Shown in pieces: positions 364 through 25,105 of a DNA stretch of 25,324 nt. How positions within the stretch are numbered: position 1 is the stretch's first letter; each line of letters starts with the position of its first letter. The notes beneath the pieces are model-generated. The model saw nothing but the letters and a program-made list of their open reading frames with translations. It had not been told where the DNA came from and ran no database searches. The DNA comes from Thermoanaerobaculia bacterium (GTDB lineage: Bacteria > Acidobacteriota > Thermoanaerobaculia > UBA2201). Made by a program: the position numbers and the translations under genes. The stretch lies in contig JBBFMJ010000001.1 of the NCBI GenBank assembly GCA_037478515.1, positions 1 through 25,324 of the forward strand, read 5' to 3'.

Positions 364-370
364 AAAAAAG

Positions 371-543: not shown

Positions 544-552
544 TTTTGAAAA

Positions 553-699: not shown

Positions 700-721
700 G
701 ATTAAATTTTAAGGAGGGTTT

Positions 722-1774: not shown

Positions 1775-1782
1775 GGGGAGAT

Positions 1783-7700: not shown

Positions 7701-7701
7701 G

Positions 7702-8541: not shown

Positions 8542-8543
8542 GA

Positions 8544-10169: not shown

Positions 10170-10801
10170 TATGTTATTTTAACTTGAAAGGAAGTTATCT
10201 TTTTGTCCTTTTCAAAGAGAGCCGCTTCAGCAATATCTCCCTTTTTCAGTTCTCCAATCCCGGAAGGGGTTCCTGTAAAGATTATATCTCCCTTTTTTAA
10301 GGGGATAAATTGACTTATAAATTTAGTTATTTCTCTGGGTTTTAAAATCATTTCTTTAAAAGAGCCCTCCTGCCTTAAAACTCCATTTACAAATAATTTG
10401 ATCTTTAGATCCTTTTCATTTTTTATTTCATAAAAGTTTGAGATGGGTCCAGAGGAGTCAAACCCTTTTGCCAGAAACCAGGGTTTCCCCTTTTCTTTCA
10501 GTTCCTTTTGCAGATCCCTTAGAGTAAGATCCAGCCCAACCCCGTATCCAATTTCCTCTCCCGTAAAGAGCAGGGTTATTTCTACCTCATGGTGCAGGAG
10601 TTTTGCAAAATCAGGTTTTGGAATCCTTTCCATTTTTCCTTCAGCCAGCACCAGTGCCGATAAGGGTTTTATAAAAAGGGCAGGGGAGTCCTTTTCCTTC
10701 CCCATTTCTTTAATATGTTCCCTGTAATTGCTTGTGAGGCAAAATATTCTATTGGGTCTTATTTTAATTTCTTCCTTTTCTTTTATAAATTTTATAAACA
10801 T
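10169..10801 (-). CDS. Fumarylacetoacetate hydrolase family protein (YcgM/FAHD1-like)
   Basis: SNYREH, FIKP, HHEVE, GLDLTLRDLQ, WFLAKGFD, GDIIFTGTPSG. Confidence 0.92.
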   Translation of the reverse strand: MFIKFIKEKEEIKIRPNRIFCLTSNYREHIKEMGKEKDSPALFIKPLSALVLAEGKMERIPKPDFAKLLHHEVEITLLFTGEEIGYGVGLDLTLRDLQKELKEKGKPWFLAKGFDSSGPISNFYEIKNEKDLKIKLFVNGVLRQEGSFKEMILKPREITKFISQFIPLKKGDIIFTGTPSGIGELKKGDIAEAALFEKDKKITSFQVKIT

Positions 10802-11970
10802 AAGGATAGCCCTCTTTCAAGGTCTTCAATTAAATCATTTACATCCTCGCATCCCACGGATAATCTCACAAGCCCATTGGATATCCCTGCCTCTTCTCTC
10901 TGCTTATCTGAAAGACCAGAATGGGTCATTGAAGCAGGGTGCTGGATGAGGGATTCTATGCCTCCCAAGGAGACAGCCAGGGCAGGGACTCTTAAATTAT
11001 TCATAAGTTTAACTCCTGCCTCATATCCACCCTTTAAAATAAAAGATATCATAGCCCCAGGACCCTTCATCTGTTTTTTTGCCAGTGCCCTTTGGGGAAA
11101 GGATTTTAAACTTGGATAAAATACTTTTTCTACTGCCCGCTGTTTTTCCAAAAAGGAAGCAATCTTTTTGGCATTTTCCTGGGCTTTTAAAACTCTTAAA
11201 GGTAGGGTCTTTACACCTCGGAGGATAAGCCATGCCTGATGGGGATCCATTGTTCCACCTAAATTAAGCAAAACCTTCCTGACCCTTTCTCCCAGATCTT
11301 TGTCTTTAAAAATTAATACTCCCCCTAAAGCATCGGAATGACCATTTATATATTTTGTTAAGGAATGCAAGACAATGTCTGCCCCAAAATCTATGGGATT
11401 TTGAAGAATAGGGCTTGAAAAAGTATTATCCACAGCAAGGTAAGCCCCATTTTTATGGGCTATCTCTGCACATTTTTCAATATCTGTCATTTTAAGGGTG
11501 GGATTTGCTGGAGTTTCAATATATATCAGTTTAGTATTCTTTTTTACCGCTTTTTCTACCAGTTTTAAATTTGAAGTATCTATGAAGGAAGATTCAACAC
11601 CAAAGCGTGAAAATTCCTTTTCCATAATGACCCTTGAAGGGGCATAGAGGCAATCAGTTCCAATTATATGATCTCCCTTGCTCAAAAGGGAGAAATATAA
11701 AGTTGAGACAGCAGCCATACCTGTGGCTGTTGCCAGACCCACTTCACCCTTTTCCAACTTTGAGAGTGTTTTTTCCAACTGTTCCACAGTGGGATTTTTT
11801 AATCGGGTATAAATATATCCCTTTCCCGTTAAAAATCTTCTGGACCCTTCTTCAGCAGAAGGGAATTTAAAAATAGAAGTTTGATAAATTGGGGTTATTA
11901 CAGCCCCGGATTTTTCATCTCCCTTTCCATCAGAATGGACGCAAATTGTTTCAAAACCTTCAAAATCCAT
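10792..11970 (-). CDS. Cys/Met metabolism PLP-dependent lyase (methionine gamma-lyase / cystathionine gamma-lyase-like)
   Basis: PIYQTS.F, YTRLKNPT, TGMAAV, YIETPANPTL, VDNTF, HSLTKYINGHSD (PLP Lys), AVSLGGIESLIQHPASMTH, RLSVGCED. LYAPS replaces the LYGCT of classical MGL, so the substrate is uncertain. Confidence 0.88.
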   Translation of the reverse strand: MDFEGFETICVHSDGKGDEKSGAVITPIYQTSIFKFPSAEEGSRRFLTGKGYIYTRLKNPTVEQLEKTLSKLEKGEVGLATATGMAAVSTLYFSLLSKGDHIIGTDCLYAPSRVIMEKEFSRFGVESSFIDTSNLKLVEKAVKKNTKLIYIETPANPTLKMTDIEKCAEIAHKNGAYLAVDNTFSSPILQNPIDFGADIVLHSLTKYINGHSDALGGVLIFKDKDLGERVRKVLLNLGGTMDPHQAWLILRGVKTLPLRVLKAQENAKKIASFLEKQRAVEKVFYPSLKSFPQRALAKKQMKGPGAMISFILKGGYEAGVKLMNNLRVPALAVSLGGIESLIQHPASMTHSGLSDKQREEAGISNGLVRLSVGCEDVNDLIEDLERGLSLCL

Positions 11971-11981
11971 ACTTCCCCCTT

Positions 11982-13235
11982 TTATTTTGTCTGTGATACT
12001 TTGTTATAAATAAAAGCCAGAAACTCTTCCGGTGTAAAAATCTTACAATCTCCAAAATCCTGAACCCTTTTACTCCTCATAAGGTAAAGGGTTCTGTGGC
12101 AGATGTATTCAAAGTTGTATCTAAAATTTTGTCCCTTTAAATCTTCATACATTTTTTGAAGGGTTGTAAGTTGCCTGTCTAGTATGAAATTTGGCTCTTC
12201 GGTTTCATATTTTGCAGGTATTTCCTTTTTCTTTGTCTTTTCAGTTTTTAGTCCAAGATATATGTAAGATAACTTATTTATTTCTTCAGATATTTTATCA
12301 GGGGTTCTTCTCTCTTTTTGATATATTATTGCAGGTATTCCCAAACTATTTGCCCTGTTTATCTCTTCGGACTCCACGATCCATCCCAGATTTGTAGAAT
12401 TAAATCTGGAAGATACATTCCTGGCAAGGTTTACTACAAAGGGTTGAACTGCTTTTTCATAGGAATTTTTAATTCCATTAAACATATTGAGCACATAAAA
12501 TACCTGAAAATATTCTAAAATATTTTGAATTATTTCAATAATTGGATGGTCTCCCAAGGCATGTTTTAAATCAATAAGGAAAGCATCTAAATTTTGAATG
12601 GATGTATCATAGGTGTCCTCCACGGAATCAATTAGAGAATTTATAAGTTTTGAAAGGGAAGCCCCTCCTTTTATTAGATTATAAAGAGGAGATGAGGGGT
12701 GGAAAATTATCCTGAGTTTTCTGAAAAGAATTGCTTTAACAATGTCTGAGGCAGCCATAGTGGCAGCGGGTAAATGGGGTGTAAAGATTAAAATCCCTGA
12801 ATTAGAAAAGGGAAGAAAATCAATTACATTTGGGTCAAGCCCTGCCTTTAAATCCAAGACGATGTATTTTGCATCCAAATTGTTAATGGCATCTATGAGT
12901 TTTTTCTTGTTTTTTGTGGTGAGATTGGATATCTCATCAATGAAATGGGCAGGTCCAGGTATGAAAGAAAATTCCTTAAACCTTCCTTCTGGGTCCCATT
13001 TTGAAGGTATTCTGTTTTGACATTCCTCCAGAAGATTGTTTTTTTTGAAAAAATGGTATAAGTCCTTTTCTATCTGAACATCCAGAACATTTCTTATGGA
13101 AGAAGTACCCGTATCCAGGTCAATTAAAATAGTTCTACCATACTGACTTAAAGTCAAGGCATAATTTATGGCAAAAGTTGTTTTGCCAACTCCCCCCTTC
13201 CCTGATGAAACAGAAATAATTCTCTTATTTTTCAT
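11982..13235 (-). CDS. MinD/FlhG/ParA-family P-loop ATPase with an internal insertion and a C-terminal extension
   Basis: Deviant Walker A SGKGGVGKTT, LIDLDTG, VLDLKAG (switch II-like), VLNMF, GWI..SEEI..A..LGIP; 417 aa, longer than typical MinD/FlhG. Confidence 0.8.
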   Translation of the reverse strand: MKNKRIISVSSGKGGVGKTTFAINYALTLSQYGRTILIDLDTGTSSIRNVLDVQIEKDLYHFFKKNNLLEECQNRIPSKWDPEGRFKEFSFIPGPAHFIDEISNLTTKNKKKLIDAINNLDAKYIVLDLKAGLDPNVIDFLPFSNSGILIFTPHLPAATMAASDIVKAILFRKLRIIFHPSSPLYNLIKGGASLSKLINSLIDSVEDTYDTSIQNLDAFLIDLKHALGDHPIIEIIQNILEYFQVFYVLNMFNGIKNSYEKAVQPFVVNLARNVSSRFNSTNLGWIVESEEINRANSLGIPAIIYQKERRTPDKISEEINKLSYIYLGLKTEKTKKKEIPAKYETEEPNFILDRQLTTLQKMYEDLKGQNFRYNFEYICHRTLYLMRSKRVQDFGDCKIFTPEEFLAFIYNKVSQTK

Positions 13236-13616: not shown

Positions 13617-13625
13617 ATTTTGGAT

Positions 13626-14801
13626 ATGAAAAGCGTAATTTATCCCAACCTATCCCAGTTAGTAAAAAAGTATGGTAAGTTTGATGGTCGTCTCTGTTAT
13701 AACTGTGGAACCTGCACAGTTTCCTGTCCTATGGCAGACGAGACCACTTCTTTTCCAAGAAGGCCTATTCAAATGGTCCATGTGGGGGAGAAAGATAAAT
13801 TAATATCTATGGTTGAGCCATGGATCTGTCACTGGTGTGGGGACTGCTCAGCCAATTGTCCCCAGAAAGCAGAACCAGGGGAATCGATGAATACCATCAG
13901 AAAATACCTCTCCTCTGTTTATGACTGGACTGGGATTTCCTCAATTTTTAATAAATACTGGATTTTTAAAATTGGGCTTTATCTTTTTTCCATTGCTTTA
14001 ATCTTTGGATTGATTGCCTATTATCACATAAAAGAAGTGGGTATCTCTTTTTCTGACCTATTAAAAATGACCCCTTCGGAGATGAGTGATTCAAATTTAG
14101 GCCATGTCTTTGGAACAACTAAAATAATGTTTTATTTTACCTATGCTTTCTTCCTTTTGCCTTTAATTATACTCATAACCAACGGGATGAGGATGTGGTA
14201 TTTCACAATGAAAAGGAATAGTGCCCTTAAAATTCCCTTCTCCCTTTACCTTTCAGAACTTAAAAATTTCTTAATCCTTGGACTTACCCAGAAAAAATTC
14301 AAAGAATGCAAGGAAAAGAGTATGTGGACAAGGCACGTAACCCTTTTTGCTGGCTTTCTTTTGATTTCAATAATTGTATTTTTCTTTTTGAAATTTTTCC
14401 AGACCGATGCCATTTATCCCATCTACCATCCTCAAAGATGGCTTGGCTACATTGCTACAATCCTGATGCTTTATGGAAGTACTGCTATGATATTAGGGAG
14501 AATAACAAAGAAGGAAGAGATACACAAAAAGAGCGATTTTTCTGATTGGTCCCTTCCAATTTTATGTTTTCTTGTGGCTTTAAGCGGAATACTTATCCAT
14601 ATCTTTAGATATGTAAAAATGGAAAAGGCATCCCACTATATGTTTCTTGCTCATATTTTGATTTTAGCCCCGTTGATGCTCAAAGAACTTCCCTTTGGAA
14701 AGCTTGCCCACCTCCTCTACCATCCTCTTGGTCTTTACTTTAAAGGGGTAAAAGACAGAGCCATTAAGATGGAAGAAGAAAAAGAAGCAAAGGTTGCCTA
14801 A
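13626..14801 (+). CDS. qmoC: QmoC-like protein: HdrC-like 2x[4Fe-4S] domain plus NarI-like transmembrane (heme b) domain
   Basis: CYNCGTCTVSCP and CHWCGDCSANCP; several TM helices; YHPQRWLGY and PFGKLAH, which I recognise from QmoC; His pair in the last helix (LAH...KLAH). Start at ATG 13626 or TTG 13620. Confidence 0.8.
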   Translation: MKSVIYPNLSQLVKKYGKFDGRLCYNCGTCTVSCPMADETTSFPRRPIQMVHVGEKDKLISMVEPWICHWCGDCSANCPQKAEPGESMNTIRKYLSSVYDWTGISSIFNKYWIFKIGLYLFSIALIFGLIAYYHIKEVGISFSDLLKMTPSEMSDSNLGHVFGTTKIMFYFTYAFFLLPLIILITNGMRMWYFTMKRNSALKIPFSLYLSELKNFLILGLTQKKFKECKEKSMWTRHVTLFAGFLLISIIVFFFLKFFQTDAIYPIYHPQRWLGYIATILMLYGSTAMILGRITKKEEIHKKSDFSDWSLPILCFLVALSGILIHIFRYVKMEKASHYMFLAHILILAPLMLKELPFGKLAHLLYHPLGLYFKGVKDRAIKMEEEKEAKVA

Positions 14802-14828: not shown

Positions 14829-15698
14829 ATGATTGAACAAAAGGTTGGAGCAGCAATGATAGTGGGTGGAGGGATTGGGGGAATGCAGGCAGCCCTAGAC
14901 CTGGCTGAATCAGGAATAAAGGTCTATATTGTGGAAAAGGACTCAGCCATTGGTGGAGTTATGGCTATGCTGGATAAAACCTTCCCCACCAATGACTGTG
15001 CTATGTGTACTATGGCTCCCCGTCTTGTTTCAATTGGAAGGCATAAGGATATTGAAGTTATTTCCATGGCATCCATTGAAAGGGTTGAAGGGGAAAAGGG
15101 AAATTTTAAAATAAGGATTAAAAAGAATCCAAGATATGTGGATGAAGAAAAGTGCACTGGCTGTGGCAGTTGTATTGAAAACTGCCCTGTCTATTTTAAA
15201 GTCCAGCCCTTAAAAATAGAAAGGACAAAACTGGATCCCAAATTTGAAAAGGTAAAGGAAATTGTAGCCAAACATAAGAACAGAAAAGGATTCCTGATGC
15301 CCATACTTCAGGAAATAAATGCCACCTATTATTACCTTCCAGAAAATGCTTTAAGATATGTGGCTGAAGAGACAGGCACACCTTTAATAAATATTATGAG
15401 AATAGCAACCTTTTACAGTGCCTTCAGCATAACCCCTAGGGGAAAGAATTTAATAAATGTATGCACCGGAACTGCTTGCTATGTGAAGGGAGCAGATCGT
15501 CTGATGGAAAAGTTTCAGGAAGTTTTGGATATTCCGGAAGGGGGAACCACAAAAGATATGCTCTTTACTTTAAAATCAGTTCGCTGCATTGGTTGTTGTG
15601 GTCTGGCTCCTGCAATAATGGTCAATGATACTGTCTATGGAAAACTTCTCCCCAAGGATGTGCCTGACATAATTAAAAAATACAAGGAGGCTTCATAA
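14829..15698 (+). CDS. Fusion: N-terminal HdrA fragment (FAD Rossmann start plus half a ferredoxin) and NuoE/HndA-like [2Fe-2S] domain
   Basis: Residues 1-121: IVGGGIGGMQAALDLA, EK...IGG.MA.LDKTFPTNDCAMC, PRYVDEEKCTGCGSCIENCPV. Residues ~136-289: LMPILQEIN..Y.YLP, ATFYSAFS..PRGK..INVCTGTACYVKG, VRCIGCCGLAP. SD AGGAGG upstream. Confidence 0.9.
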   Translation: MIEQKVGAAMIVGGGIGGMQAALDLAESGIKVYIVEKDSAIGGVMAMLDKTFPTNDCAMCTMAPRLVSIGRHKDIEVISMASIERVEGEKGNFKIRIKKNPRYVDEEKCTGCGSCIENCPVYFKVQPLKIERTKLDPKFEKVKEIVAKHKNRKGFLMPILQEINATYYYLPENALRYVAEETGTPLINIMRIATFYSAFSITPRGKNLINVCTGTACYVKGADRLMEKFQEVLDIPEGGTTKDMLFTLKSVRCIGCCGLAPAIMVNDTVYGKLLPKDVPDIIKKYKEAS

Positions 15699-15699: not shown

Positions 15700-16083
15700 A
15701 TGCCAAAGCTAACCCTTGAAGATTTAAAGAAAAAAAGAGAAGAGGCAAGGTCTAAACTTTATTTAAGAGATGGAGAATTCAGAGGGAAAGTAATTGTCCA
15801 TATGGGAACCTGTGGAATTGCAGCAGGGGCAAGGGAAATAGTGGAACAATTTCTTGAAGAGGTGGAAAAAAACAATGCCAGAGACATTCAAATAACCACT
15901 TCCGGGTGTGCTGGTTTGTGCTCAAAGGAACCTATGGCAACGGTAGAGATAAAAGGTGCAGCTCCAGTAAAATACATAACCCTTAGCAGAGATAAAGTCA
16001 AAAAGATTTTTAAAGAACATATATTGGAAGGAAAAATTGTAGCTGAATATGCCCTTGGTGTGGGCTCTGAAAAAGGAGGTTAG
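15700..16083 (+). CDS. Thioredoxin-like ferredoxin, HndB/HydD-like
   Basis: VHMGTCGIAAGAR and TSGCAGLCSKEP; lies between the NuoE-like and NuoF-like genes, as hndB does in hndABCD. Confidence 0.85.
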   Translation: MPKLTLEDLKKKREEARSKLYLRDGEFRGKVIVHMGTCGIAAGAREIVEQFLEEVEKNNARDIQITTSGCAGLCSKEPMATVEIKGAAPVKYITLSRDKVKKIFKEHILEGKIVAEYALGVGSEKGG

Positions 16084-16086: not shown

Positions 16087-17979
16087 ATGGCTACAAGAAG
16101 AATAGAACTTATGCTTTGTACTGGGACAGGTTGTGTGGCGGGGGGTGCCTTTAGAATAAAGGATGCCCTGGAGAAGGAAATAAAAAAACACAACCTTCAA
16201 AATGAAGTTTCTGTGGTTATAACTGGTTGTAATGGCTTTTGTGGGCAGGGTCCTATAATGGTTGTAAAACCAGACGATATTTTTTATGGTTTTTTAAATG
16301 AGCAGGAAATAGGGTATCTGGTGGAGGAACACCTTTTAAAAGGCAGGCCTGTAAAAAAATTTATGTTTACGCCCCCAGAAAAGAAGGAGCCCATTAAACT
16401 TTTGAGCGAAATTCCCTTCTTCCAGAAACAGATGCTTATTGTTTTAAGAAATAAAGGAATCATTGATCCGGAAAACATTGAAGAGTATATTGCCAGAGAT
16501 GGTTATGCTGCCCTGGAAAAGGTTCTAACCTCAATGAAGCCAGAAGAAGTCATAGAAGAGATAAAAAAATCTGGATTGAGGGGAAGGGGTGGTGCTGGAT
16601 TTCCCACGGGCCAGAAATGGGAAGTTTGTTTCAAACAGAAGGTTAAACCAAAATATTTAATCTGTAATTGTGATGAGGGAGATCCCGGCGCTTATATGGA
16701 CAGGTCTGTCTTTGAAACAGATCCCCATTCTGTAATTGAAGGTATGATAATTGCTTCCTACGCCTGTGATATAGATCAGGCATTTATTTATATAAGAACA
16801 GAATATCCCCTGGCAGTGCAGAGAGCAGCCAAGGCAATTCAGCAGGCAAAGGAATATGGACTTTTAGGGAAAAATATTTTGGGAACAAATTTTAGTCTGG
16901 ACATTGAAATAAGGGAAGGTTCAGGTGCCTTTGTATGTGGAGAAACCACTTCCCTGCAGCATTCCATTGAAGGTAAAAACCCAGAACCCAGGCAGAGACC
17001 TCCCAGGACTTCTGAAAAGGGCTTATGGGATCAACCCACAGTGGTAAATAATGTGGAAACCCTGGCAAATGTACCTGTTATCATTTTAAGGGGTGGTGAC
17101 TGGTATGCCAGCATTGGCACTGAAAAAAGCAAAGGGACTAAAATATTTTCTCTTGTAGGAAAGGTAAATAACACGGGCCTTGTGGAAGTTCCTATGGGTA
17201 TAACTTTGAGGGAAATGATTTATGATATAGGTGGTGGAATTCCAAAGGGGAAAAAATTTAAAGCAGTTCAAACGGGTGGTCCTTCTGGTGGCTGTATCCC
17301 AGAAAAATATCTGGATACACCTGTGGATTTTGAAACTTTAACTTCCCTGGGTTCAATGATGGGTTCTGGTGGTATGATTGTAATGGACGAAGATACTTGC
17401 ATGGTGGATGTAGCAAAATATTTTATACAATTTACCAATGATGAGTCCTGTGGAAAATGCACCATCTGCAGGGAAGGTTCAGGGGCTTTACTGGAGGTTT
17501 TAACAAGGATTACAGAAGGAAAAGGCAAGGAAAGAGATATTGAATATTTAGAAGAACTCTGTGCAGCCATAATTGATGGATCCCTCTGTGGTCTGGGAAA
17601 CAGTTTGCCCTATCCAGTTTTAACTACTCTTAAATATTTCAAAGAAGAATATGAAGCCCATATTAAAGAGAAAGCGTGCCCTGCCAGATCCTGTAAAAGT
17701 TTAATTAAATACTGGATTGATCCAGACAGGTGCGTGGGCTGTCTATTATGTATGAAAAACTGTCCCACCAATGCCATATCAGGGAAAACAAAATTTATCC
17801 ATACTATAAATTATGAATTATGTACAAAATGTGGAAACTGTTTTGATGTCTGCCCTGAAAAAGTAGGGGCAGTTAAAAAACTAACAGGTACTGAACCTGA
17901 AAAAGTGGTCTATTTAAAGGAGCCAGTTGCAGTGGGGGATTGGAAAAAACAAAAACAAGAGGAGGGAAAAAATGATTAA
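16087..17979 (+). CDS. NuoF/HndC/HydB-like NAD(P)H-binding flavoprotein, long form with extra FeS domains
   Basis: N-terminal Trx-like CTGTGC...GCNGFC; SGLRGRGGAGFPTG; CNCDEGDPGAYMDR; GAFVCGETTSL; NNVETLAN; GGPSGG; SCGKCTICREG/SLCGLG; EDTC and H...K.CPARSC site; C-terminal CVGCLLCMKNCP and CTKCGNCFDVCP. Confidence 0.93.
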   Translation: MATRRIELMLCTGTGCVAGGAFRIKDALEKEIKKHNLQNEVSVVITGCNGFCGQGPIMVVKPDDIFYGFLNEQEIGYLVEEHLLKGRPVKKFMFTPPEKKEPIKLLSEIPFFQKQMLIVLRNKGIIDPENIEEYIARDGYAALEKVLTSMKPEEVIEEIKKSGLRGRGGAGFPTGQKWEVCFKQKVKPKYLICNCDEGDPGAYMDRSVFETDPHSVIEGMIIASYACDIDQAFIYIRTEYPLAVQRAAKAIQQAKEYGLLGKNILGTNFSLDIEIREGSGAFVCGETTSLQHSIEGKNPEPRQRPPRTSEKGLWDQPTVVNNVETLANVPVIILRGGDWYASIGTEKSKGTKIFSLVGKVNNTGLVEVPMGITLREMIYDIGGGIPKGKKFKAVQTGGPSGGCIPEKYLDTPVDFETLTSLGSMMGSGGMIVMDEDTCMVDVAKYFIQFTNDESCGKCTICREGSGALLEVLTRITEGKGKERDIEYLEELCAAIIDGSLCGLGNSLPYPVLTTLKYFKEEYEAHIKEKACPARSCKSLIKYWIDPDRCVGCLLCMKNCPTNAISGKTKFIHTINYELCTKCGNCFDVCPEKVGAVKKLTGTEPEKVVYLKEPVAVGDWKKQKQEEGKND

Positions 17980-20900
17980 GATTATTGTGGATGGAAAAGA
18001 AGTAGAAATTGAAGGTGGTCAAAAATTAATTAAAGCAGTGGAAGCAGCAGGGGTAAAGGTTCCAACCCTTTGCTATCATAAGGCATTGAGCCCCTATGGT
18101 GCTTGCCGTTTGTGCGTGGTGGAGGTGGGGGCAAAGGGAAGGAGTAAATCCGTCCAGGCATCCTGTACTTACCCTGCCAGCGATGGGCTGGAAGTTTTGA
18201 CTAATACAGAGAGGGTAAGAAGGGTAAGAAAGATTGCTTTAGAACTTCTGCTTGCTAGGTGCCCCTCTTCTGAAACCATCCAGCTTCTGGCTGCTGAATA
18301 TGGGGTCTTTGAGCCCAGGATTGAAAAGAAAAATGAGGACTGTATAAATTGTGGGCTCTGCATTAGGATGTGTGAAGAGAGGATGGGAAGAAAGGTCTTA
18401 GGTTTTACAGGAAGGGGTCCAAGAAAAAAATTAGAGCCACCCTTTTCGGCAAAAAATCCTGCCTGCTGGGCCTGTGGTGCCTGTAATTTTATTTGCCCAG
18501 TGGGAAAGAAAGTTACAGATCTTACTACAGATCTGGAATTCAAACCCATTGAAGATAGATTCAATAGGGGTTTGAGCAGCAGGGCAGTTGCCCATATCCT
18601 CTATCCCCAGGCAGTACCAGCCAAGGCAGTTCTGGACCCAGAAAATTGTATTAGGTTAAATTATGATGCCTGTGGTATCTGCGCTGAAGTATGCGAACCC
18701 AAGGCAATAAATTTTGAAGACAAGGGTAAGGAGCTGGAAATAAATGTGGGTTCCATAATCCTTGCCCCTGGATTTGATCCTTACAAACCAGAGGAAAAGG
18801 AAGATTTGGGTTATAAAAAATTTCCAAATGTGGTTACCTCCATTGAATTTGAAAGAATCCTCTCTGCTTCAGGTCCCTACTGCGGAGAGGTAAAGAGGCC
18901 CTCTGATGGAAAACATCCAGAAAAGATTGCCTTTATCCAATGCGTTGGATCAAGAGAAAAGGAAAGAAACTGGTGCTCTTCTGTTTGCTGTATGTATGCC
19001 ACAAAGGAAGCAATTATGGCAAAGGAACATGCAGGGGAGAGTTTAAAATGTGATATCTATTTTATGGATGTGAGGGCATATTCAAAGGGTTTTGAACAAT
19101 ATTATGATAGTGCCAAGAAGCTGGGAATAAATTATATAAGGTGCAGGGTTCCAAAACTGGAGGAAAACCCAGAAAATAAAAATATCATAGTAACCTATCT
19201 TGGTGAGGATGATAGAAAATTAAAAGCAGAATATGATATGGTTATACTTTCCATAGGCCTCTGCCCTCCTTCAGATGCAAAGAAAATAGCTGAAAAATTT
19301 GGCATTGACTTGAACGAATTTGGTTTTGCTTCCTCTTCCACCTTCAAGCCAGTGGAGACAAAAAGGGAAGGGATTTACATTGCAGGTCCCTTCACGGAGC
19401 CCAAGGATATTCCAGAAACAGTAATGCAGGCAACTGCTTCTGCTTCTAAGGCACTTTCAGTGCTGGCTGATGTAAAGGGTCAGCTTATAAAGCCCATGGT
19501 ATTTCCTGAGGAAGTGGATGTTACAGGGCAGGAGCCCAGAATTGGGGTATTTGTATGCCATTGCGGAACAAATATTGCAGGAGTTGTAAATGTTCCGGAA
19601 GTGGTGGAATATGCAAAAACCCTTCCCAATGTGGTCTTTGCCACTAATACAATTTATACCTGCTCCAATGATACCCAGGAACTTATAAAACAAAAGATAA
19701 AGGAATACAATTTGAATAGAATTATTGTCTCTGCTTGCACTCCAAGAACCCATGAACCCCTTTTCAGAAATACTGTAAAGGAAGCGGGTTTAAATCCCTA
19801 TCTCTTTGAAATGGCAAATATAAGGGATCAAAACTCTTGGGTGCATATGCAGTTCCCCGATGCAGCAACTAAAAAGGCAAAGGACCTCGTCAGAATGGCA
19901 GTGGCAAAGGCAAGATTGCTAGAACCTTTACAGAACAGCTACATAGATATAATAAAAAATGCCCTGGTAATTGGGGGTGGTATTGCAGGTATGAAGGCAT
20001 CCATGGAGCTGGCAAATCAAGGATACAAAGTTTACCTTTTAGAAAAGACAGGGGAACTGGGTGGAAATTTAAGGAATATCCATTATTTATTAAACGGAGA
20101 AAATCCAAAAGAGGAGCTGGAAAAGATTATAAAAGAGGTAAAGGAAAATAAAAATATTGAAATTTACTTTAATGCAAAAATAGAAGAGGTGGAGGGCTCC
20201 GTGGGAAGGTATAAGACAAAGATAAAATCCAATGGAAATGAGTATGTTTTTGAACATGGAGTTGTAATAATTGCAATGGGTGGAAAGGAATATGAGCCCA
20301 AAGAATATATGTATGGAGAAGATGGAAGGGTCCTCACCCAGAGGCAATTGGAAGAAAAGATTGCAAAAAAAGAAATTAAACTTCCTGAAACTGTGGTAAT
20401 GATCCAGTGCGTGGGTTCCAGAGAAGGGGAAAGGCCATCCTGTTCAAGGATATGCTGCGGTATTGCCATAAAGAATGCATTAAAAATCAAGGAAATTTCA
20501 CCAAAAACCAATGTTTTCATACTTTACAGAGATGTAAGGGCTTATGGATTTAAAGAAAAGTATTACACTCTGGCAAGGGATAAAGGGGTAACCTTTATAA
20601 GATGGGATATTGAAGATGGAAAACCAGCCGTTTATAAAAATAATGGAAAAATATATGTTGATGTAAAGGATAAGATTTTGAATATGGAGCATACAATTCC
20701 AGCAGACCTTGTAGTTTTATCCACTGGGGTTATGCCTAACGAAGATCATAAAGAAGTTGCCCAGCATTTTAAGGTTCCGGTTACTGCAGAAGGATACTTT
20801 CTGGAAGCCCATATGAAACTCCGGCCTGTGGACTTTGCCACAGATGGTGTTTTCCTTGCAGGTCTTGCTCATTTCCCCAAGACCATTGATGAAAGCATAA

Positions 20901-21220
20901 TCCAGGCACAGGCATCGGCAGCAAGGGCAGCAACTATTCTTTCAAAGGACAAATTAGAGCTGGAAGCCACAATTTCAAAAGTCATTGATGAAAACTGCGA
21001 TGGTTGTGCTTACTGTGTGGATACCTGTCCTTACAAAGCCATTACCCTTCTGGAATATGTTTTTCAGGGCAGCATAAAGAAGACCGTGGAAGCCAATGAA
21101 AGCTTATGCAAGGGCTGTGGGACCTGTATGGCAACCTGCCCAAAGAAAGGTATTCTTGTAAAGGGCTTTACCTTGGAGCAGCTGCAGGCACAGGTCTTTG
21201 CAGCACTTGAACAATCTTAA
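17972..21220 (+). CDS. Fusion: NuoG/HndD-like N-terminal FeS region, remainder of HdrA copy 1, and a complete second HdrA/QmoB-like module
   Basis: Start reassigned from 17927 to ATG 17972 (SD AGGAGG). Res 1-178: PTLCY, GACRLCVVE, ASC, CINCGLCIRMC, CWACGACNFICP. Res ~192 onward: RFNRGLSSRA...YPQAVP, ENC...CGICAEVC, VGSIILAPGF, TSIEFERILSASGP, FIQCVGSR, CSSVCCMYATKEA, AGP...PKDIPETV. Then IGVFVCHCG.NI, ACTPRTHEPLF, NIRDQ, ALVIGGGIAG, MIQCVGSR, CSRICC, EAH.KLRPV, CDGCAYCVDTCP, CKGCGTCMATCP. Confidence 0.92.
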   Translation: MIKIIVDGKEVEIEGGQKLIKAVEAAGVKVPTLCYHKALSPYGACRLCVVEVGAKGRSKSVQASCTYPASDGLEVLTNTERVRRVRKIALELLLARCPSSETIQLLAAEYGVFEPRIEKKNEDCINCGLCIRMCEERMGRKVLGFTGRGPRKKLEPPFSAKNPACWACGACNFICPVGKKVTDLTTDLEFKPIEDRFNRGLSSRAVAHILYPQAVPAKAVLDPENCIRLNYDACGICAEVCEPKAINFEDKGKELEINVGSIILAPGFDPYKPEEKEDLGYKKFPNVVTSIEFERILSASGPYCGEVKRPSDGKHPEKIAFIQCVGSREKERNWCSSVCCMYATKEAIMAKEHAGESLKCDIYFMDVRAYSKGFEQYYDSAKKLGINYIRCRVPKLEENPENKNIIVTYLGEDDRKLKAEYDMVILSIGLCPPSDAKKIAEKFGIDLNEFGFASSSTFKPVETKREGIYIAGPFTEPKDIPETVMQATASASKALSVLADVKGQLIKPMVFPEEVDVTGQEPRIGVFVCHCGTNIAGVVNVPEVVEYAKTLPNVVFATNTIYTCSNDTQELIKQKIKEYNLNRIIVSACTPRTHEPLFRNTVKEAGLNPYLFEMANIRDQNSWVHMQFPDAATKKAKDLVRMAVAKARLLEPLQNSYIDIIKNALVIGGGIAGMKASMELANQGYKVYLLEKTGELGGNLRNIHYLLNGENPKEELEKIIKEVKENKNIEIYFNAKIEEVEGSVGRYKTKIKSNGNEYVFEHGVVIIAMGGKEYEPKEYMYGEDGRVLTQRQLEEKIAKKEIKLPETVVMIQCVGSREGERPSCSRICCGIAIKNALKIKEISPKTNVFILYRDVRAYGFKEKYYTLARDKGVTFIRWDIEDGKPAVYKNNGKIYVDVKDKILNMEHTIPADLVVLSTGVMPNEDHKEVAQHFKVPVTAEGYFLEAHMKLRPVDFATDGVFLAGLAHFPKTIDESIIQAQASAARAATILSKDKLELEATISKVIDENCDGCAYCVDTCPYKAITLLEYVFQGSIKKTVEANESLCKGCGTCMATCPKKGILVKGFTLEQLQAQVFAALEQS

Positions 21221-21236: not shown

Positions 21237-21653
21237 ATGTCTGAGAACTTTGAACCCTTCATAATTGCTTTTTGTTGTAACTGGTGTTCCTATGCAGCAG
21301 CAGACCTGGCAGGGGTCTCCAGGTTTCAGTATCCCCCTAATATGAGGCTTATTAGAGTTATGTGTTCTGGTATGGTGCATCCAAACCTTATAATTGATGC
21401 CTTGACAAGGGGTGCTGACGGCGTAATTGTTTGTGGATGCCACCCAGGGGACTGCCATTATCTTTCAGGAAATCTGGTTGCAAAGAAAAGGGAAGAGGGT
21501 ATCTATTTAATGCTGGATGACTTGGGGATTGAAAGGGACAGGTTCCGCTTGGAATGGATTTCTGCTGCAGAAGGAATTAAATTTTCTCAGGTTATGAAGG
21601 AATTCACCGAGCAAATAAGAAAACTGGGTCCCAGCCCTTATAGAACATTTTAA
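21237..21653 (+). CDS. mvhD: Methyl-viologen-reducing hydrogenase delta subunit ([2Fe-2S], MvhD/FlpD family)
   Basis: AFCCNWCSYAAAD, RLIRVMCSG, GADGV..CGCHPGDCHY, RFRLEWISAAEG. Confidence 0.95.
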   Translation: MSENFEPFIIAFCCNWCSYAAADLAGVSRFQYPPNMRLIRVMCSGMVHPNLIIDALTRGADGVIVCGCHPGDCHYLSGNLVAKKREEGIYLMLDDLGIERDRFRLEWISAAEGIKFSQVMKEFTEQIRKLGPSPYRTF

Positions 21654-21933: not shown

Positions 21934-22860
21934 ATGGCAGTAAAAGTTGCTAATGAATGTTTTGCCATCTGTCAGGGATGCGAAATTACCATCCTGGACA
22001 TCGGAGAAACCCTTCTGGAACTCCTTCCCCAGCTTGAATTTGTACATATGCCTGTTCTGATGGATCACAAACTCTTTGGTCAGACCGGTGAAAAAGATAA
22101 GATGGAGATACCTGAAGCAGATGTGGGAATCATCTCAGGAGGAGTGAGAAATGAGGAAAACAAAGAAGTTCTAAAGGAAATGAGAGCCAAATGCAAGACC
22201 CTTATTGCCCTTGGTTCCTGTGCCTGTTTTGGTGGGATTCCAGCCCTGGCAAATCAGTTTCAACTGGCTGAACTTTATGAAAAGGTTTACAGGCAATCCA
22301 AAAGTACTGATCCCGCCGAAACTCCTTCAAAAGAGGTACCCCCTTTGACAGATAGAGTTTATGCTTTGGATGAGATTGTAAAAGTAGATGTATATATCCC
22401 TGGCTGTCCAACTCAACCTGAAATTATTCTGGAAGCTTTAACTGCCCTTCTTCAGGGCAAGCCCTTCTCCCTGCCAGAAAGATCTGTGTGCGATGATTGT
22501 CCTACCCAGAGGCAGAAGAAAGCAGATATCTCCTTGAGAAGACCCCTGGAAAATGTAACAGATATTACAAAAAAAGTGGAAGAATCCAGATGTTTTATGG
22601 AACTGGGATATTTATGCCTGGGTCCTGTGACCAAGTCAGGTTGTGGTGGTCATGAGAAAGTTCCAAGGTGTATAAAAGGATATATGCCTTGCAGAGGTTG
22701 TTTTGGTCCTATCAGAAAGGGTGCAAATCCACTGGTGGAAATGATTGGTGCCTTATCATCCATTGGGCTTGATCCAAACCTGATCCCAGACAGGGCAGCA
22801 ACAATTCAAAGGTATATTGGTGCCCACAACAGGTTAAGACCACTACCAAAAAGACCATAA
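21934..22860 (+). CDS. mvhG: [NiFe]-hydrogenase small subunit, group 3c (MvhG-like)
   Basis: CQGCEITILD, ALGSCACFGGIP, YIPGCP, VCDDCP, RCF....LCLGPVT..GC, C....MPCRGCFGP; no Tat signal. Confidence 0.92.
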   Translation: MAVKVANECFAICQGCEITILDIGETLLELLPQLEFVHMPVLMDHKLFGQTGEKDKMEIPEADVGIISGGVRNEENKEVLKEMRAKCKTLIALGSCACFGGIPALANQFQLAELYEKVYRQSKSTDPAETPSKEVPPLTDRVYALDEIVKVDVYIPGCPTQPEIILEALTALLQGKPFSLPERSVCDDCPTQRQKKADISLRRPLENVTDITKKVEESRCFMELGYLCLGPVTKSGCGGHEKVPRCIKGYMPCRGCFGPIRKGANPLVEMIGALSSIGLDPNLIPDRAATIQRYIGAHNRLRPLPKRP

Positions 22861-22875
22861 TTTAAGGAGGAAAAA

Positions 22876-24318
22876 ATGAAAAAAATAGTTATACAACCCG
22901 TATCAAGGATTGAAGGACATGCAAAGGTAACAATCCAGCTGGACGATGCTGGAAATGTCCAGGACACCTGGGTAAATGTAATAGAACTAAGGGGCTTTGA
23001 AAAGTTCTGTATTGGAAAGCCCGTAGAGGAACTTCCCAGGATTGTGACTTCCATCTGTGGTGTCTGCCCCTGGTCTCACCATCTTGCCTCATCCAAGGCA
23101 TGCGATGCTGTCTTTGGTGTGCAGCCCCCACCTGCAGGTAGAAAATTAAGGGAACTCTGCAATTCCATTGCCTATACTGAAGAACACACTCTCCATTTTT
23201 ATTTTCTGGCAGGCGCAGATTTTGTAATGGGTCCTGATGAGGATTATTCTATAAGAAATGTAATTGGTATTGCCCAGAAATATCCAGACATAGGTAAGAA
23301 AGTTGTAAGGTGCAGGCATCTTGCAGCAGTTATGCTGGACATTGTTTCAGGAAAAGCAATCCACCCTGTCACTTCTGTTCCAGGGGGAGTAAGCAAACCT
23401 TTAAGGCAAGAAGAAGTTGAAAAATTAAAACCTATGGCAGAGGAAATGCTGGAATTTGCAAAATTTTCCATTGATTTTGCCAAGAAAAATATCTTCCCCA
23501 AATTTCTGGATGCAGTAAAAACCATTGGGGTAATTGAAACAGGTTTTCTGGGAACCGTAAAGGATGATGGTGCTTTGGACCTCTATGATGGGAAACTAAG
23601 GATGATGACCCCCGATGGGAAGTATGAGGACTTTACTTATGAACAGTATACTGATTTTATTGCTGAGCATATTGAGCCCTGGTCCTATTTGAAGTTTCCC
23701 TATATGAAGAAAGCAGGTGGTTTTTCTATGGACCTGGCAAATCCCAAAGGAATTTACAGAACCAATACCCTTGCCAGAATAAATGTATGTGATTATATTC
23801 CAACCCCACTTGCCCAAGCAGAACTGGAAGAATTCAGAAAGAATTTTGGAAGACCCTGTCAGCTTACACTCCTTTATAACTGGGCACGCCTTATAGAACT
23901 TTTATACAATGCAGAAATGGTTGTAAAACTTTTAAATGACCCAGAAATTACTTCCACTGATACCAGGGTTCCAGTAAAGCCCAGAGCAGCAAGGGGTATT
24001 GGCTGTGTGGAAGCCCCCAGAGGAACCCTCATCCACGATTATGAAACCGATGCCAATGGGATTGTTACAAATGTTAATTTAATTGTAGGAACTACCCACA
24101 ACAATGCTCCCATAAATATGTCTGTTAAGAAAACTGCCAAAGAACTCATAAAAGATGGAAAATATGATCAGGGAATTTTAAACCGCTTAGAGATGGCAAT
24201 TAGAGCCTATGACCCCTGCCTCTCCTGTGCTACACATAAGCTGGATGGTACCCTTCCTGTTAAAGTTGAAATAATTGACAAAAACTTCAAAAAAATAGAT
24301 ACCTTGGTAAATTATTAA
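22876..24318 (+). CDS. mvhA: [NiFe]-hydrogenase large subunit, group 3c (MvhA-like)
   Basis: PVSRIEGHAK, ELRGFEKF, L1 SICGVCPWSHH, EAPRGTLIHDY, TTHN, L2 RAYDPCLSCATH followed by a 26-aa cleavable C-terminal extension. Cys, not Sec. Confidence 0.94.
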   Translation: MKKIVIQPVSRIEGHAKVTIQLDDAGNVQDTWVNVIELRGFEKFCIGKPVEELPRIVTSICGVCPWSHHLASSKACDAVFGVQPPPAGRKLRELCNSIAYTEEHTLHFYFLAGADFVMGPDEDYSIRNVIGIAQKYPDIGKKVVRCRHLAAVMLDIVSGKAIHPVTSVPGGVSKPLRQEEVEKLKPMAEEMLEFAKFSIDFAKKNIFPKFLDAVKTIGVIETGFLGTVKDDGALDLYDGKLRMMTPDGKYEDFTYEQYTDFIAEHIEPWSYLKFPYMKKAGGFSMDLANPKGIYRTNTLARINVCDYIPTPLAQAELEEFRKNFGRPCQLTLLYNWARLIELLYNAEMVVKLLNDPEITSTDTRVPVKPRAARGIGCVEAPRGTLIHDYETDANGIVTNVNLIVGTTHNNAPINMSVKKTAKELIKDGKYDQGILNRLEMAIRAYDPCLSCATHKLDGTLPVKVEIIDKNFKKIDTLVNY

Positions 24319-24324: not shown

Positions 24325-24360
24325 AAGGCACGGCTTAAAAAATAAGCCGTGCCTTTTCTT
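24325..24360 (+). terminator. Intrinsic terminator-like hairpin after mvhA
   Basis: AAGGCACGGCTTA-AAAAA-TAAGCCGTGCCTT: perfect 13-bp stem with a 5-nt loop; its end runs into TTTTCTT. Confidence 0.85.
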
Positions 24361-24852
24361 ATGGAAAATTACCCATCTTACTGTCTTAAGAAAAATTTAG
24401 TTTTAGGTTGTGGAAATATCTTTTTTGGCGATGATGGTTTTGGTCCTGAATTTATAAAGTACCTGGAAGAAAGTGGATTGATACCAGAGGATACAATTGC
24501 CATAAATGCAGGTTTAAGCATAAGAGAAATTTTATTTAACATTGTTTTAAGTGATAAAAAGCCAGAAAGGATAGTTATAATAGATGCTGTAGATTTAGGG
24601 GAAGAGCCAGGAGAGATTTTTGAGGTAGACCTGGATGAGATTCCCAAAATTAAGATAGATGATTTTTCTATGCACCAGATGCCCACTTCCAATCTTTTAA
24701 AGGAATTAAAAGAGAAAGGAAATGTGGAGGTAAGGGTTTTATCAATTCAGGTAGAAAATATCCCCGAAGAGATAAGCCCTGGAATATCAGAAAAACTAAA
24801 AAATTCTTATGAAAAAATGTATCAAAAATTAGTAAAAATACTGGAGGAATAA
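24361..24852 (+). CDS. Hydrogenase maturation endopeptidase (HyaD/HycI/FrhD family)
   Basis: LVLGCGNIFFGDDGFG, IVIIDAVD.G..PG, SMHQ. ATG 24361 preferred because GTG 24349 lies inside the terminator stem. Confidence 0.92.
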   Translation: MENYPSYCLKKNLVLGCGNIFFGDDGFGPEFIKYLEESGLIPEDTIAINAGLSIREILFNIVLSDKKPERIVIIDAVDLGEEPGEIFEVDLDEIPKIKIDDFSMHQMPTSNLLKELKEKGNVEVRVLSIQVENIPEEISPGISEKLKNSYEKMYQKLVKILEE

Positions 24853-24853
24853 T

Positions 24854-25105
24854 ATGCACGAGTGGAAAATAACAGAATCAATTATTGAGGAAATTTTAAA
24901 GCAAGCAGAAGCCAGTGGGATAAAAAAAGTTAATAAGGTCATTCTTTCCATTGGGCAGGACTCAGATTTAACCCCTGATGTTATAAATTTTTGTTTTGAT
25001 AATTTAAAAAACAATTTTCCTATAAATAGAGACCTGGATCTGGAAATAAAAATGAGGGAGGGAATGGGCGGAGTAATAATTGAGGAGATTGAAGGAGAAG
25101 ATTAG
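24854..25105 (+). CDS. hypA: HypA-like nickel metallochaperone lacking the zinc-finger domain (83 aa)
   Basis: N-terminal MHE Ni motif, V..V.L.IG..S...P....F.F, L.LEI, then directly GGVIIEEIEGED; no CxxC pair. Confidence 0.8.
   Translation: MHEWKITESIIEEILKQAEASGIKKVNKVILSIGQDSDLTPDVINFCFDNLKNNFPINRDLDLEIKMREGMGGVIIEEIEGED

What the first reader, a model, noticed from the sequence alone, without database searches (positions are those of the whole stretch)
16936..17010. NuoF-like subunit has a probable NADP(H)-specificity signature
Seen: CGETTSL replaces canonical CGEETAL, and RPPRT replaces the usual [K/R]PPFP. Known: the second Glu of CGEET (E183 in E. coli NuoF) binds the adenosine ribose of NADH, and substituting it lets complex I use NADPH; the Phe of PPFP contacts the adenine. 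Inference: loss of the acid plus gain of Arg suits a 2'-phosphate, so the complex likely uses NADP(H). This would make it an H2- or quinol-linked NADPH supply, or a transhydrogenase-like device.
Basis: partly seen in the sequence, partly recalled or inferred. Interest (0 to 1): 0.7.

Follow-up and report, generated by a model that had tools for sequence, protein, structure and literature searches.

The report
NADP-type pocket in hydrogenase flavoprotein
The nucleotide-binding subunit of a hydrogen-handling enzyme complex, found in hot-spring and sediment samples, carries the same residue swaps as a related, tested enzyme that uses NADP(H) and not NAD(H), so this complex probably works on the cell's NADPH pool.

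Summary
The gene at 16087-17979 (+) encodes a complete 630-aa HydB/BfuB-type (long NuoF-like) flavoprotein. It reads C-G-E-T287-T and R-P-P-R307-T308 where relatives read CGEET and [KR]PP[FY]P.

T287 aligns without gaps to E. coli NuoF E183, and R307 to F203. The same two positions are Ser320 and Arg340 in Thermoanaerobacter kivui HydB. That enzyme reduces NADP+ but not NAD+, and its structure paper names Arg340 as an NADP+ contact. Engineered changes at these positions in Rhodobacter FdsB (E259X, L279R) also give NADP+ activity.

The 119 closest homologues (68-85% identical) are almost all canonical. This includes an 85% homologue in the same operon type, so the switch looks recent. Four of P0001's 16 deviations from class-conserved columns lie in this pocket.

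Across about 420 family members, Arg at 307 arose at least 13 times, nearly always with loss of the Glu and of the following Pro. Contigs from a second, independent study carry the identical sequence.

Verdict: a probable NADP(H)-preferring member of a known natural variant class, inside a split-HdrA/Bfu/[NiFe]-hydrogenase operon. The scan has noted that operon type on other DNA, but not this signature. No enzyme assay exists.

The parts
16087..17979 (+). hydB/bfuB-like gene (P0001, 630 aa). It has an N-terminal thioredoxin-like [2Fe-2S] domain, an FMN/NAD(P)H-binding 51K domain, an SLBB domain, the N3-type [4Fe-4S] region and a C-terminal 2x[4Fe-4S] ferredoxin domain.
   Evidence: Pfam. Full-length matches to solved HydB chains: 7t2r_B E 9.5e-238, 7q4v_B, 8a6t_B.
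16936..16950 (+). C284-G-E-T287-T288, replacing the canonical CGEET. T287 (16945-16947) sits at the position of E. coli NuoF E183, T. thermophilus Nqo1 E185, R. capsulatus FdsB E259 and T. kivui HydB S320.
16957..16959 (+). Q291, one helical turn after T287. It is aliphatic (I/L/M) in 280 of 286 aromatic-type relatives and is often Thr or Gln in the Arg-type class. T. kivui has Thr here.
   Evidence: The coupling was not significant on the tree.
16996..17010 (+). R304-P-P-R307-T308, replacing [KR]PP[FY]P. R307 (17005-17007) sits at the position of E. coli F203, T. thermophilus F205, FdsB L279 and T. kivui R340.
16600..16617 (+). F172 to K177 of the Gly-rich loop GLRGRGGAGFPTGQKW, retained. F172 is T. 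kivui Phe205 (the other named NADP+ contact). K177 is C. saccharolyticus NfnB Lys-164 (H-bond to the adenine ribose).
13620..14801 (+). Membrane subunit (P0002): an HdrC-like 2x[4Fe-4S] N-terminus followed by a hydrophobic C-terminal part (my reading of the translation). First gene of the operon.
   Evidence: Translation. Pfam. PDB HdrC matches, E 1.5e-11.
14829..15698 (+). P0003: HdrA N-terminal FAD-binding piece fused to a NuoE/HydC-type thioredoxin-like [2Fe-2S] domain.
   Evidence: Pfam (PF01257 at 142-286, E 9.7e-48; FAD/Rossmann hits at 10-46).
15700..16083 (+). P0004: a small 127-aa protein with four Cys and no Pfam hit. Its place in the operon is conserved.
17972..21220 (+). P0005: NuoG-N-terminal [2Fe-2S]/[4Fe-4S] domains fused to the rest of HdrA plus a second HdrA-like unit. 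The likely ATG start at 17972 overlaps the hydB stop. The listed ORF starts at TTG 17927.
   Evidence: HdrA 5odc_A, E 1e-165.
21237..21653 (+). MvhD/FlpD-like subunit (P0006).
   Evidence: Pfam PF02662, E 9e-55.
21934..24318 (+). [NiFe]-hydrogenase small subunit (21934-22860) and large subunit (22876-24318), of the MvhG/MvhA type.
   Evidence: Pfam. PDB 5odc_F MvhA E 1e-125; 7t2r_D E 6e-122.
24349..25105 (+). HycI-type maturation protease (24349-24852) and a short HypA (24854-25105).
   Evidence: Pfam.

Best explanation
P0001 is the FMN-containing, nucleotide-binding HydB/BfuB subunit of a multi-subunit complex. The complex combines a Bfu-type (HydBC-like) module, a split HdrA flavoprotein, MvhD, an Mvh-type [NiFe]-hydrogenase and an HdrC-like membrane subunit.

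Its dinucleotide pocket has been converted from the NAD(H) type to the NADP(H) type seen in T. kivui HydB:
- The Glu that H-bonds the adenosine ribose hydroxyls, and would repel a 2'-phosphate, is Thr287.
- The aromatic residue that stacks on the adenine is Arg307, which can stack on the adenine and pair with the 2'-phosphate.
- The rigid Pro after it is Thr308.
- The aliphatic residue one turn after the Glu is Gln291.
- The other adenine-stacking Phe (F172), the ribose-binding Lys (K177), the Gly-rich loop and all cluster ligands are kept.

The complex therefore most likely exchanges hydride with NADP+/NADPH at this FMN. That would tie H2, and probably ferredoxin and/or menaquinone through HdrA and the membrane subunit, to the NADPH pool.

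Shown: the sequence, the residue equivalences, the conservation pattern, the recurrent co-variation and the operon content. Inferred: NADP(H) preference, the direction of the reaction and its partners.
For: 1. Residue equivalence. Ungapped alignments put T287/R307 on E. coli NuoF E183/F203, T. thermophilus Nqo1 E185/F205, R. capsulatus FdsB E259/L279 and T. kivui HydB S320/R340.

2. A tested natural example. T. kivui HydABC gives 20.8 U/mg with NADP+ and <0.01 U/mg with NAD+ (PMC8578170). Its structure paper states that the nucleotides are stabilised by the Gly-rich loop and by interactions with Phe205 and Arg340 (PMC10021017). 8A6T is the T. kivui model. Both residues are present here, as F172 and R307.

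3. Mutagenesis at the same positions. FdsB E259R/K/G/Q and L279R each gain NADP+ activity, while the wild type and E259D have none (PMC10671435). In NADH-bound NfnB, Glu-274 H-bonds the adenine ribose and the aromatic residue at 294 stacks on the adenine (PMC11829005).

4. Specific to this protein. 118 of the 119 closest homologues keep an aromatic residue at 307. The 85%-identical homologue sits in the same operon type. The pocket sites are 4 of P0001's 16 class-level deviations.

5. A family-wide rule. In 134 Arg-307 sequences, position 287 is G, A, S or T in 131, and 308 is never Pro. In 286 aromatic-307 sequences, 287 is Glu in 282 and 308 is Pro in 278. On a 421-sequence tree the Arg state changes at least 13 times. 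In about 7 of 8 independent supported pairs the loss of Glu goes the same way, and in none the opposite way (sign test p 0.016). The result is the same for loss of Pro.

6. The same switch recurs in this operon family (P0097, P0276, P0319/P0325).

7. The sequence is real: identical contigs come from a second study.
Against: - No enzyme of this operon type has been assayed.
- Thr at 287 is unique among the 134 Arg-type sequences, which have G, A or S. Its fit to a 2'-phosphate is therefore assumed.
- The Rossmann loop reads N-C-DEGDPG, as in the NAD-type relatives. It does not read N-G-DEGDPG, which one paper proposed as an NADP marker (PMC9431212). Gly there is enriched in the Arg class (93 of 126) but is absent from every Arg-type member of this clade.
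- Single engineered substitutions give only relaxed specificity with millimolar Km, so strict specificity cannot be read from two residues.
- Only one biochemically characterised natural enzyme (T. kivui) anchors the signature. I could not retrieve the second known NADP-specific one (C. autoethanogenum HytB) to test it.
- The Gln291 coupling is not significant on the tree.
Confidence: 0.7

Rival explanations
1. Relaxed, dual NAD(H)/NADP(H) use. The pocket tolerates the 2'-phosphate but still turns over NADH at a physiologically useful rate, so the complex can draw on either pool.
For: Engineered E-to-X and L279R variants of FdsB keep NAD+ activity while gaining NADP+ activity. The C. necator SH HoxF E341A/S342R variant accepts both, as reported in a review (PMC10127272). 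The Rossmann loop (C195) is unchanged from the NAD-type relatives.
Against: The natural T. kivui enzyme has the same Ser/Thr + Arg + Thr combination and is strict (<0.01 versus 20.8 U/mg). Here four pocket positions have changed, not one.
Confidence: 0.2
2. The enzyme is still NADH-preferring. The substitutions would be neutral drift, or tune affinity or thermostability without changing which nucleotide is used.
For: No assay exists. The overall protein is 68-85% identical to canonical relatives. The samples are hot-spring and sediment metagenomes.
Against: The Glu and the aromatic residue are kept in 282 and 286 of the 286 aromatic-type sequences. Losing the Glu raised the NAD+ Km up to 62-fold in FdsB. 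Arg at 307 is almost never found with the Glu retained (1 of 118 real scan hits). Ten nucleotide changes are concentrated in four pocket codons.
Confidence: 0.07
3. The dinucleotide site is degenerate. The FMN would serve only as an internal electron relay, and no pyridine nucleotide would bind.
For: Two canonical contacts are lost. Another paralogue in the genome (contig C32) does show a more disrupted site: its FMN loop reads GGAGFLTWRKW and its second motif AKYVHA.
Against: The Gly-rich loop, F172, K177, the DEGDPG loop, the GSGG loop and all Fe-S ligands are intact. The replacements are exactly those of a working NADP enzyme.
Confidence: 0.03

Closest known systems
[quoted passage not shown]
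   Same: Full-length HydB architecture (E 1.1e-222). It is the best PDB match to the 69-residue pocket segment. It shares the pocket: a small hydroxyl residue in place of the Glu (S320 there, T287 here), Arg (R340/R307), Thr after it (T341/T308), a polar residue one turn on (T324/Q291) and the conserved Phe205/F172.
   Different: The partner is an [FeFe] HydA there. Here the partners are a split HdrA, MvhD, an Mvh-type [NiFe]-hydrogenase and a membrane subunit. Position 287 is Thr rather than Ser. The loop reads N-C-DEGDPG rather than N-G-DEGDPG. The proteins are about 55% identical and do not form one clade, so the pocket arose independently.
HydB of the NAD-dependent NiFe-HydABCSL of Acetomicrobium mobile (PDB 7T2R)
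   Same: The closest solved chain overall (E 9.5e-238). Its [NiFe] large subunit is also a close match (7t2r_D, E 6e-122). It has the same Bfu-type core.
   Different: Canonical CGEETAL/RPPFP pocket, and NAD(H) as substrate. No HdrA, MvhD or membrane subunit.
Engineered NADP-accepting variants: E. coli NuoF E183 variants, R. capsulatus FdsB E259X and L279R, C. necator HoxF E341A/S342R
   Same: The positions changed here (T287 = E183 = E259; R307 = L279) are the ones that give NADP(H) activity when mutated.
   Different: Those are laboratory single or double mutants with relaxed specificity and poor Km. Here the changes are natural and involve four positions. The HoxF equivalence was not checked by alignment. 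The E. coli paper (Morina 2011) was not readable here and is known only through citations.
Split-HdrA/Bfu complexes such as class II benzoyl-CoA reductase Bam-Bfu, and MvhAGD-HdrABC
   Same: A Bfu (NuoEFG-like) module is combined with HdrA and MvhD (PMC9304861). The hydrogenase is of the MvhA/MvhG type.
   Different: No HdrB (CCG-domain protein) and no tungsten BamB are present in the window. The Bfu core of that family is described as interacting with NAD(H) (PMC9304861), whereas this one carries an NADP-type pocket.

Membership tests
HydB/BfuB (long NuoF-like flavoprotein of the HydABC/Bfu family) | 51K FMN/NAD(P)H domain, SLBB domain and N3-type [4Fe-4S] region | tested here: met
   PF01512 E 4.7e-46, PF10531, PF10589 E 2.6e-32.
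HydB/BfuB (long NuoF-like flavoprotein of the HydABC/Bfu family) | N-terminal thioredoxin-like [2Fe-2S] domain and C-terminal 2x[4Fe-4S] ferredoxin domain. Both are absent from complex I NuoF. | tested here: met
   PF01257 at 5-80 and Fer4 families at 542-592. The protein aligns end to end with solved HydB chains.
HydB/BfuB (long NuoF-like flavoprotein of the HydABC/Bfu family) | Adjacent HydC/NuoE-type [2Fe-2S] partner and a NuoG-N-type subunit | tested here: met
   P0003 residues 142-286 match PF01257 (E 9.7e-48). P0005 residues 15-194 match Fer2_4, Fer4_21 and Fer4_Nqo3.
HydB/BfuB (long NuoF-like flavoprotein of the HydABC/Bfu family) | Coupled (bifurcating) reduction of ferredoxin and a pyridine nucleotide | not testable with these tools
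   Needs the purified enzyme.
NADP-type pocket as in T. kivui HydB | Arg at the position of T. kivui R340 (E. coli F203) | tested here: met
   R307; ungapped alignments.
NADP-type pocket as in T. kivui HydB | No acidic residue at the position of E. coli E183 (T. kivui S320) | tested here: met
   T287. Thr is rare here: 1 of 134 Arg-type sequences.
NADP-type pocket as in T. kivui HydB | Non-Pro residue after the Arg, and retention of the adenine-stacking Phe (T. kivui Phe205) | tested here: met
   T308 and F172.
NADP-type pocket as in T. kivui HydB | Gly in the N-G-DEGDPG Rossmann loop. This is a proposed marker (PMC9431212), not an established one. | tested here: not met
   C195, as in all relatives of this clade, including its other Arg-type members.
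NADP-type pocket as in T. kivui HydB | Preference for NADP(H) over NAD(H) in an assay | not testable with these tools
   No biochemical data exist for this protein or its operon family.
Canonical NADH-specific NuoF/HydB pocket | Glu at the E. coli E183 position and an aromatic residue at the F203 position | tested here: not met
   T287 and R307. The canonical class has Glu in 282 of 286 and Phe or Tyr in 286 of 286.
MvhAGD-HdrABC heterodisulfide reductase complex | HdrB with CCG domains, the heterodisulfide-reducing site | tested here: not met
   No CCG-domain protein was found among the window's ORFs scanned with Pfam. Only MvhA/G/D-like, HdrA-like and HdrC-like parts are present.

The most novel reading that the evidence does not exclude
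A three-residue code (Glu to a small residue at E. coli 183, an aromatic residue to Arg at 203, Pro to Thr/Ser/Leu at 204) may be a general and repeatedly evolved NAD-to-NADP switch across the NuoF/HydB/HoxF/FdsB superfamily. This window would then capture a very recent switch, because an 85%-identical homologue is still NAD-type. It would create the first H2-linked, HdrA-coupled Bfu complex working on NADPH. If the code holds, many 'NADH-dependent' bifurcating hydrogenases would in fact be NADPH-linked. These include the hydCBA enzymes of gut Lachnospiraceae and Oscillospiraceae and relatives in Nitrospira and Betaproteobacteria.
Probability: 0.3. Interest if true: 0.65.

Novelty: new member of a known kind. 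Interest (0 to 1): 0.45.

Why it matters
Whether an H2-handling complex uses NADH or NADPH decides what it is for. The NADP+/NADPH couple is held far more reduced in cells than NAD+/NADH (about -380 versus -280 mV, as given in PMC9304861). An NADP-linked complex therefore serves biosynthetic reducing power, or needs extra driving force from ferredoxin or quinone.

The Bfu family is usually annotated and modelled as NAD(H)-dependent. A sequence rule that flags NADP-type members would correct metabolic reconstructions of many uncultured anaerobes and gut bacteria.

This locus also offers a natural pair for testing which residues set specificity: P0001 against P0007, 85% identical, in the same operon type, with different pockets.

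Tried and rejected
- The primary papers on E. coli NuoF E183 (Morina 2011, PMC3186356) and on the T. thermophilus NADH complex (Berrisford and Sazanov 2009, PMC2785608) are not held. A search for NuoF + E183 + NADPH found nothing. These facts rest on papers that cite them, and on alignment.
- C. autoethanogenum HytB, the second known NADP-specific relative, could not be retrieved.
- Search of 40 taxonomic relatives. No match above 63% identity to P0001 was found in any of them, including the same-genus genome (97% complete, best match 56%). I could not ask whether relatives share the switch. The best matches I read (one locus per genome) are canonical or of the KY[IV]H type. This tally includes one unpublished genome (G007), which contributes only a canonical complex-I-type NuoF. 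No other claim rests on it.
- Coupling of a polar residue at 291 with Arg-307: suggestive in raw counts, not significant on independent pairs.
- The Rossmann-loop marker proposed in PMC9431212 (A versus G before DEGDPG) does not discriminate within this clade.
- Taxonomy: named homologues of a neighbouring aldehyde dehydrogenase point weakly to Acidobacteriota-like lineages. I did not settle it.
- RNA evidence: no RNA holder is listed among the sequencing runs.
- Structure prediction, fold search and complex prediction were not run. The tools return no coordinates or ligand geometry, and the fold is already fixed by about 55% identity to solved chains.
- Earlier scan notes: none was found on an NADP signature.
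Full report
THE OBSERVATION

The ORF at 16087-17979 (+) encodes a 630-aa protein, P0001. At nt 16936-17010 it reads C284-G-E-T-T-S-L ... Pfam finds these parts:
- an N-terminal thioredoxin-like [2Fe-2S] domain;
- the 51K FMN-binding domain;
- an SLBB domain;
- the NuoF [4Fe-4S] region;
- a C-terminal 2x[4Fe-4S] ferredoxin domain.

The protein aligns end to end with solved HydB/BfuB chains:
- A. mobile NiFe-HydB, 7t2r_B, E 9.5e-238;
- A. woodii HydB, 7q4v_B;
- T. kivui HydB, 8a6t_B.

It is therefore a complete HydB-type flavoprotein, not a short complex I NuoF.

RESIDUE EQUIVALENCE

BLASTP against E. coli K-12 NuoF, taken from the annotated genome, is ungapped from P0001 247-306 to NuoF 143-202. 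T287 therefore equals E183, and R307 equals F203.

A search of the 69-residue pocket segment against all PDB chains gives ungapped matches with fixed offsets:

| Protein | Residue at P0001 T287 | Residue at P0001 R307 |
|---|---|---|
| T. thermophilus Nqo1 | E185 | F205 |
| R. capsulatus FdsB | E259 | L279 (K276 = R304) |
| T. kivui HydB | S320 | R340 |

T. kivui HydB is the best match in the whole PDB for this segment.

WHAT THESE POSITIONS DO

NADH-bound C. saccharolyticus NfnB. The adenine is sandwiched between Phe-159 and residue 294, and the adenine ribose H-bonds Lys-164 and Glu-274 (PMC11829005). With the constant offset of 13 seen at three landmarks, these residues are F172, R307, K177 and T287 here.

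R. capsulatus FdsB. The wild type has no NADP+ activity. E259R/K/G/Q and L279R each gain it, while E259D does not. The authors cite the equivalent E. coli NuoF result (PMC10671435).

C. necator HoxF. A review reports that E341A/S342R lets the soluble hydrogenase accept NADP+. I did not check that alignment.

T. kivui HydABC. This is the weightiest evidence. The enzyme carries Ser/Arg/Thr at 287/307/308 and reduces NADP+ at 20.8 U/mg against <0.01 U/mg for NAD+ (PMC8578170). Its cryo-EM paper states that the nucleotides are stabilised by the Gly-rich loop and by interactions with Phe205 and Arg340 (PMC10021017). 8A6T is the T. kivui model. Both named residues exist in P0001, as F172 and R307.

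IS IT SPECIFIC AND REAL?

Paralogues. The genome (2.1 Mb, 418 contigs, 36% GC) has four NuoF-like genes:
- a 424-aa complex I-type gene, CGEETGL/RPPFP;
- a 1050-aa NuoF-GltD fusion, CGEETAL/RPPYP;
- a 635-aa paralogue with a different variant, CGESSAL/AKYVHA;
- P0001.

Closest homologues. Of the 119 closest database homologues (68-85% identical), 118 keep an aromatic residue at 307 and 114 keep CGEET. The 85%-identical P0007 sits in the same operon type and reads CGEETAL/RPPYP.

Deviations. P0001 deviates from the physico-chemical class at only 16 of 434 class-conserved columns. Four of these are 287, 291, 307 and 308.

Nucleotide changes. The four replacements need 3+3+3+1 nucleotide changes relative to P0007.

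Independent samples. Logan contigs from a different study (a sediment metagenome) cover 16609-17500 with no difference. So does the probable source, a hot-spring metagenome, over 16500-17306.

A FAMILY-WIDE PATTERN

I scanned one genome per species for CGE-x8-EG-x7-[KR]PPR. The pattern did not constrain positions 287 or 308. Of these, 118 are genuine, and 117 of them lack the Glu.

I pooled these loci with the unconstrained homologue sets:

| Class | n | Position 287 | Position 308 |
|---|---|---|---|
| Arg at 307 | 134 | G 70, A 32, S 28, T 1 (P0001) | T 67, L 38, S 24; never Pro |
| Phe/Tyr at 307 | 286 | Glu in 282 | Pro in 278 |

On a FastTree of 421 sequences the Arg state changes at least 13 times. 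Among 8 independent, supported pairs that differ in Arg, loss of Glu goes the same way in about 7 and the opposite way in none (sign test p 0.016). The result is the same for loss of Pro. A polar residue at 291 is not significant.

Within this very operon family the switch has happened several times:
- P0097: EAT / RPPRS;
- P0276: EVT / RPPRS;
- P0319 and P0325: EAS / RPPRT.

CONTEXT

The gene sits in one co-directional cluster:
- an HdrC-like membrane subunit;
- HdrA-N::NuoE;
- a small Cys protein;
- HydB (P0001);
- NuoG-N::HdrA;
- MvhD;
- MvhG- and MvhA-type [NiFe]-hydrogenase subunits;
- the HycI protease;
- HypA.

No HdrB is present. The same order recurs around P0007, P0276 and P0319. Earlier notes of this scan describe this split-HdrA/Bfu arrangement on other DNA and call its module 'NADH'.

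The Bfu family paper describes the core as interacting with NAD(H) and ferredoxin. It also describes Bam-Bfu as a precedent for Bfu plus HdrA (PMC9304861).

MECHANISM PROPOSED

NADP(H) binds over the FMN. Its adenine stacks between F172 and the guanidinium of R307. The 2'-phosphate occupies the space freed by the Glu-to-Thr change. It is neutralised by R307 and H-bonded by T287, T308 and perhaps Q291.

Hydride transfer to or from FMN then connects the NADP pool, through the Bfu clusters and the NuoG-N domain, to HdrA, MvhD and the [NiFe] site. Ferredoxin and/or menaquinone would be the coupled partners.

Only the sequence facts are shown. The binding geometry, the direction and the partners are inferred.

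CAVEATS

- Thr at 287 is unusual for the class.
- The Rossmann loop keeps Cys, where many Arg-type proteins have Gly.
- Single engineered changes give only relaxed specificity.
- One assayed natural enzyme anchors the rule.
- No matches above 63% identity turned up in the 40 taxonomic relatives searched. That tally includes the unpublished genome G007, which contributes only a canonical NuoF.

VERDICT

This is best filed as a new member of a known natural variant class (T. kivui-type NADP pocket) in a new enzymatic context. I put the odds at about 0.7 for NADP(H) preference, 0.2 for dual use, and 0.1 for no change or loss of binding.

Noticed in passing
G000 contig C32, about 7416-9320 (+); related loci L129, L130, L132, L133, L138, L140: A second HydB-like paralogue (635 aa) has a different pocket variant: CGESSAL ... 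AKY[IV]H[AT], with no PP and with His at the Arg/Phe position. Its FMN loop is also altered (GGAGFLTWRKW). The same type is the best match in the same-genus and same-family genomes. Its ligand is unknown.
   Followed up: partly
L022 (Anaerobutyricum hallii DSM 3353) 321-4484; also L012-L017, L026, L027, L085 and many others: A large clade of Lachnospiraceae, Oscillospiraceae and Clostridium HydB proteins reads CGEGSAL ... KPPRT, the Arg-type signature. In A. hallii the gene lies in a classical hydC-hydB-hydA [FeFe] operon. A paper on a gut Blautia assumes NADH for such an enzyme (PMC12773636), and its specificity seems untested.
   Followed up: partly
L009, L041, L047, L049, L050, L059, L061-L063, L066, L070, L071: Homologues from Nitrospira, Thermodesulfovibrionales and Methanoregula carry CGE[SA]TAL ... 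RPPR[LV]SEPGGGxWGYP. This is an Arg-type pocket followed by a Gly-rich insertion that the other classes lack.
   Followed up: no
window 17927-17979: The listed ORF for the NuoG-N::HdrA protein starts at TTG 17927. An ATG at 17972 begins the conserved MIKIIVDGK... N-terminus. It would overlap the hydB stop (17977-17979), which suggests translational coupling.
   Followed up: partly
window 17611-17613 (P0001 residue 509): Asn to Tyr in the loop GLGNSLPYPV, just after the last N3-cluster Cys. Asn is invariant in the 119 closest homologues. This is a second lineage-specific change at an otherwise fixed site, with unknown effect.
   Followed up: no
PDB 9n5u_B versus PMC11829005: The paper names Phe-294 as the adenine-stacking residue of C. 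saccharolyticus NfnB, but the deposited chain shows Tyr (RPPYP) at the position that the numbering implies. This is probably a slip in the text and does not affect the argument.
   Followed up: partly
G001-G040: The same-genus genome (97% complete) and 39 other class-level relatives have no match above 63% identity to P0001. The nearest homologues (85%, 82%, 76%) are on metagenome contigs, and homologues 70-74% identical are labelled as several phyla. The operon therefore seems patchily distributed, possibly through horizontal transfer.
   Followed up: partly
G000 contig C19, about 10078-13227 (-): A 1050-aa fusion of a canonical (NAD-type) HydB-like N-terminal part with a GltD/NfnB-like FAD/NADPH domain. 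It may be a Bfu-type NADH/ferredoxin:NADP+ transhydrogenase. If so, the organism would have a second link between the NAD and NADP pools.
   Followed up: no
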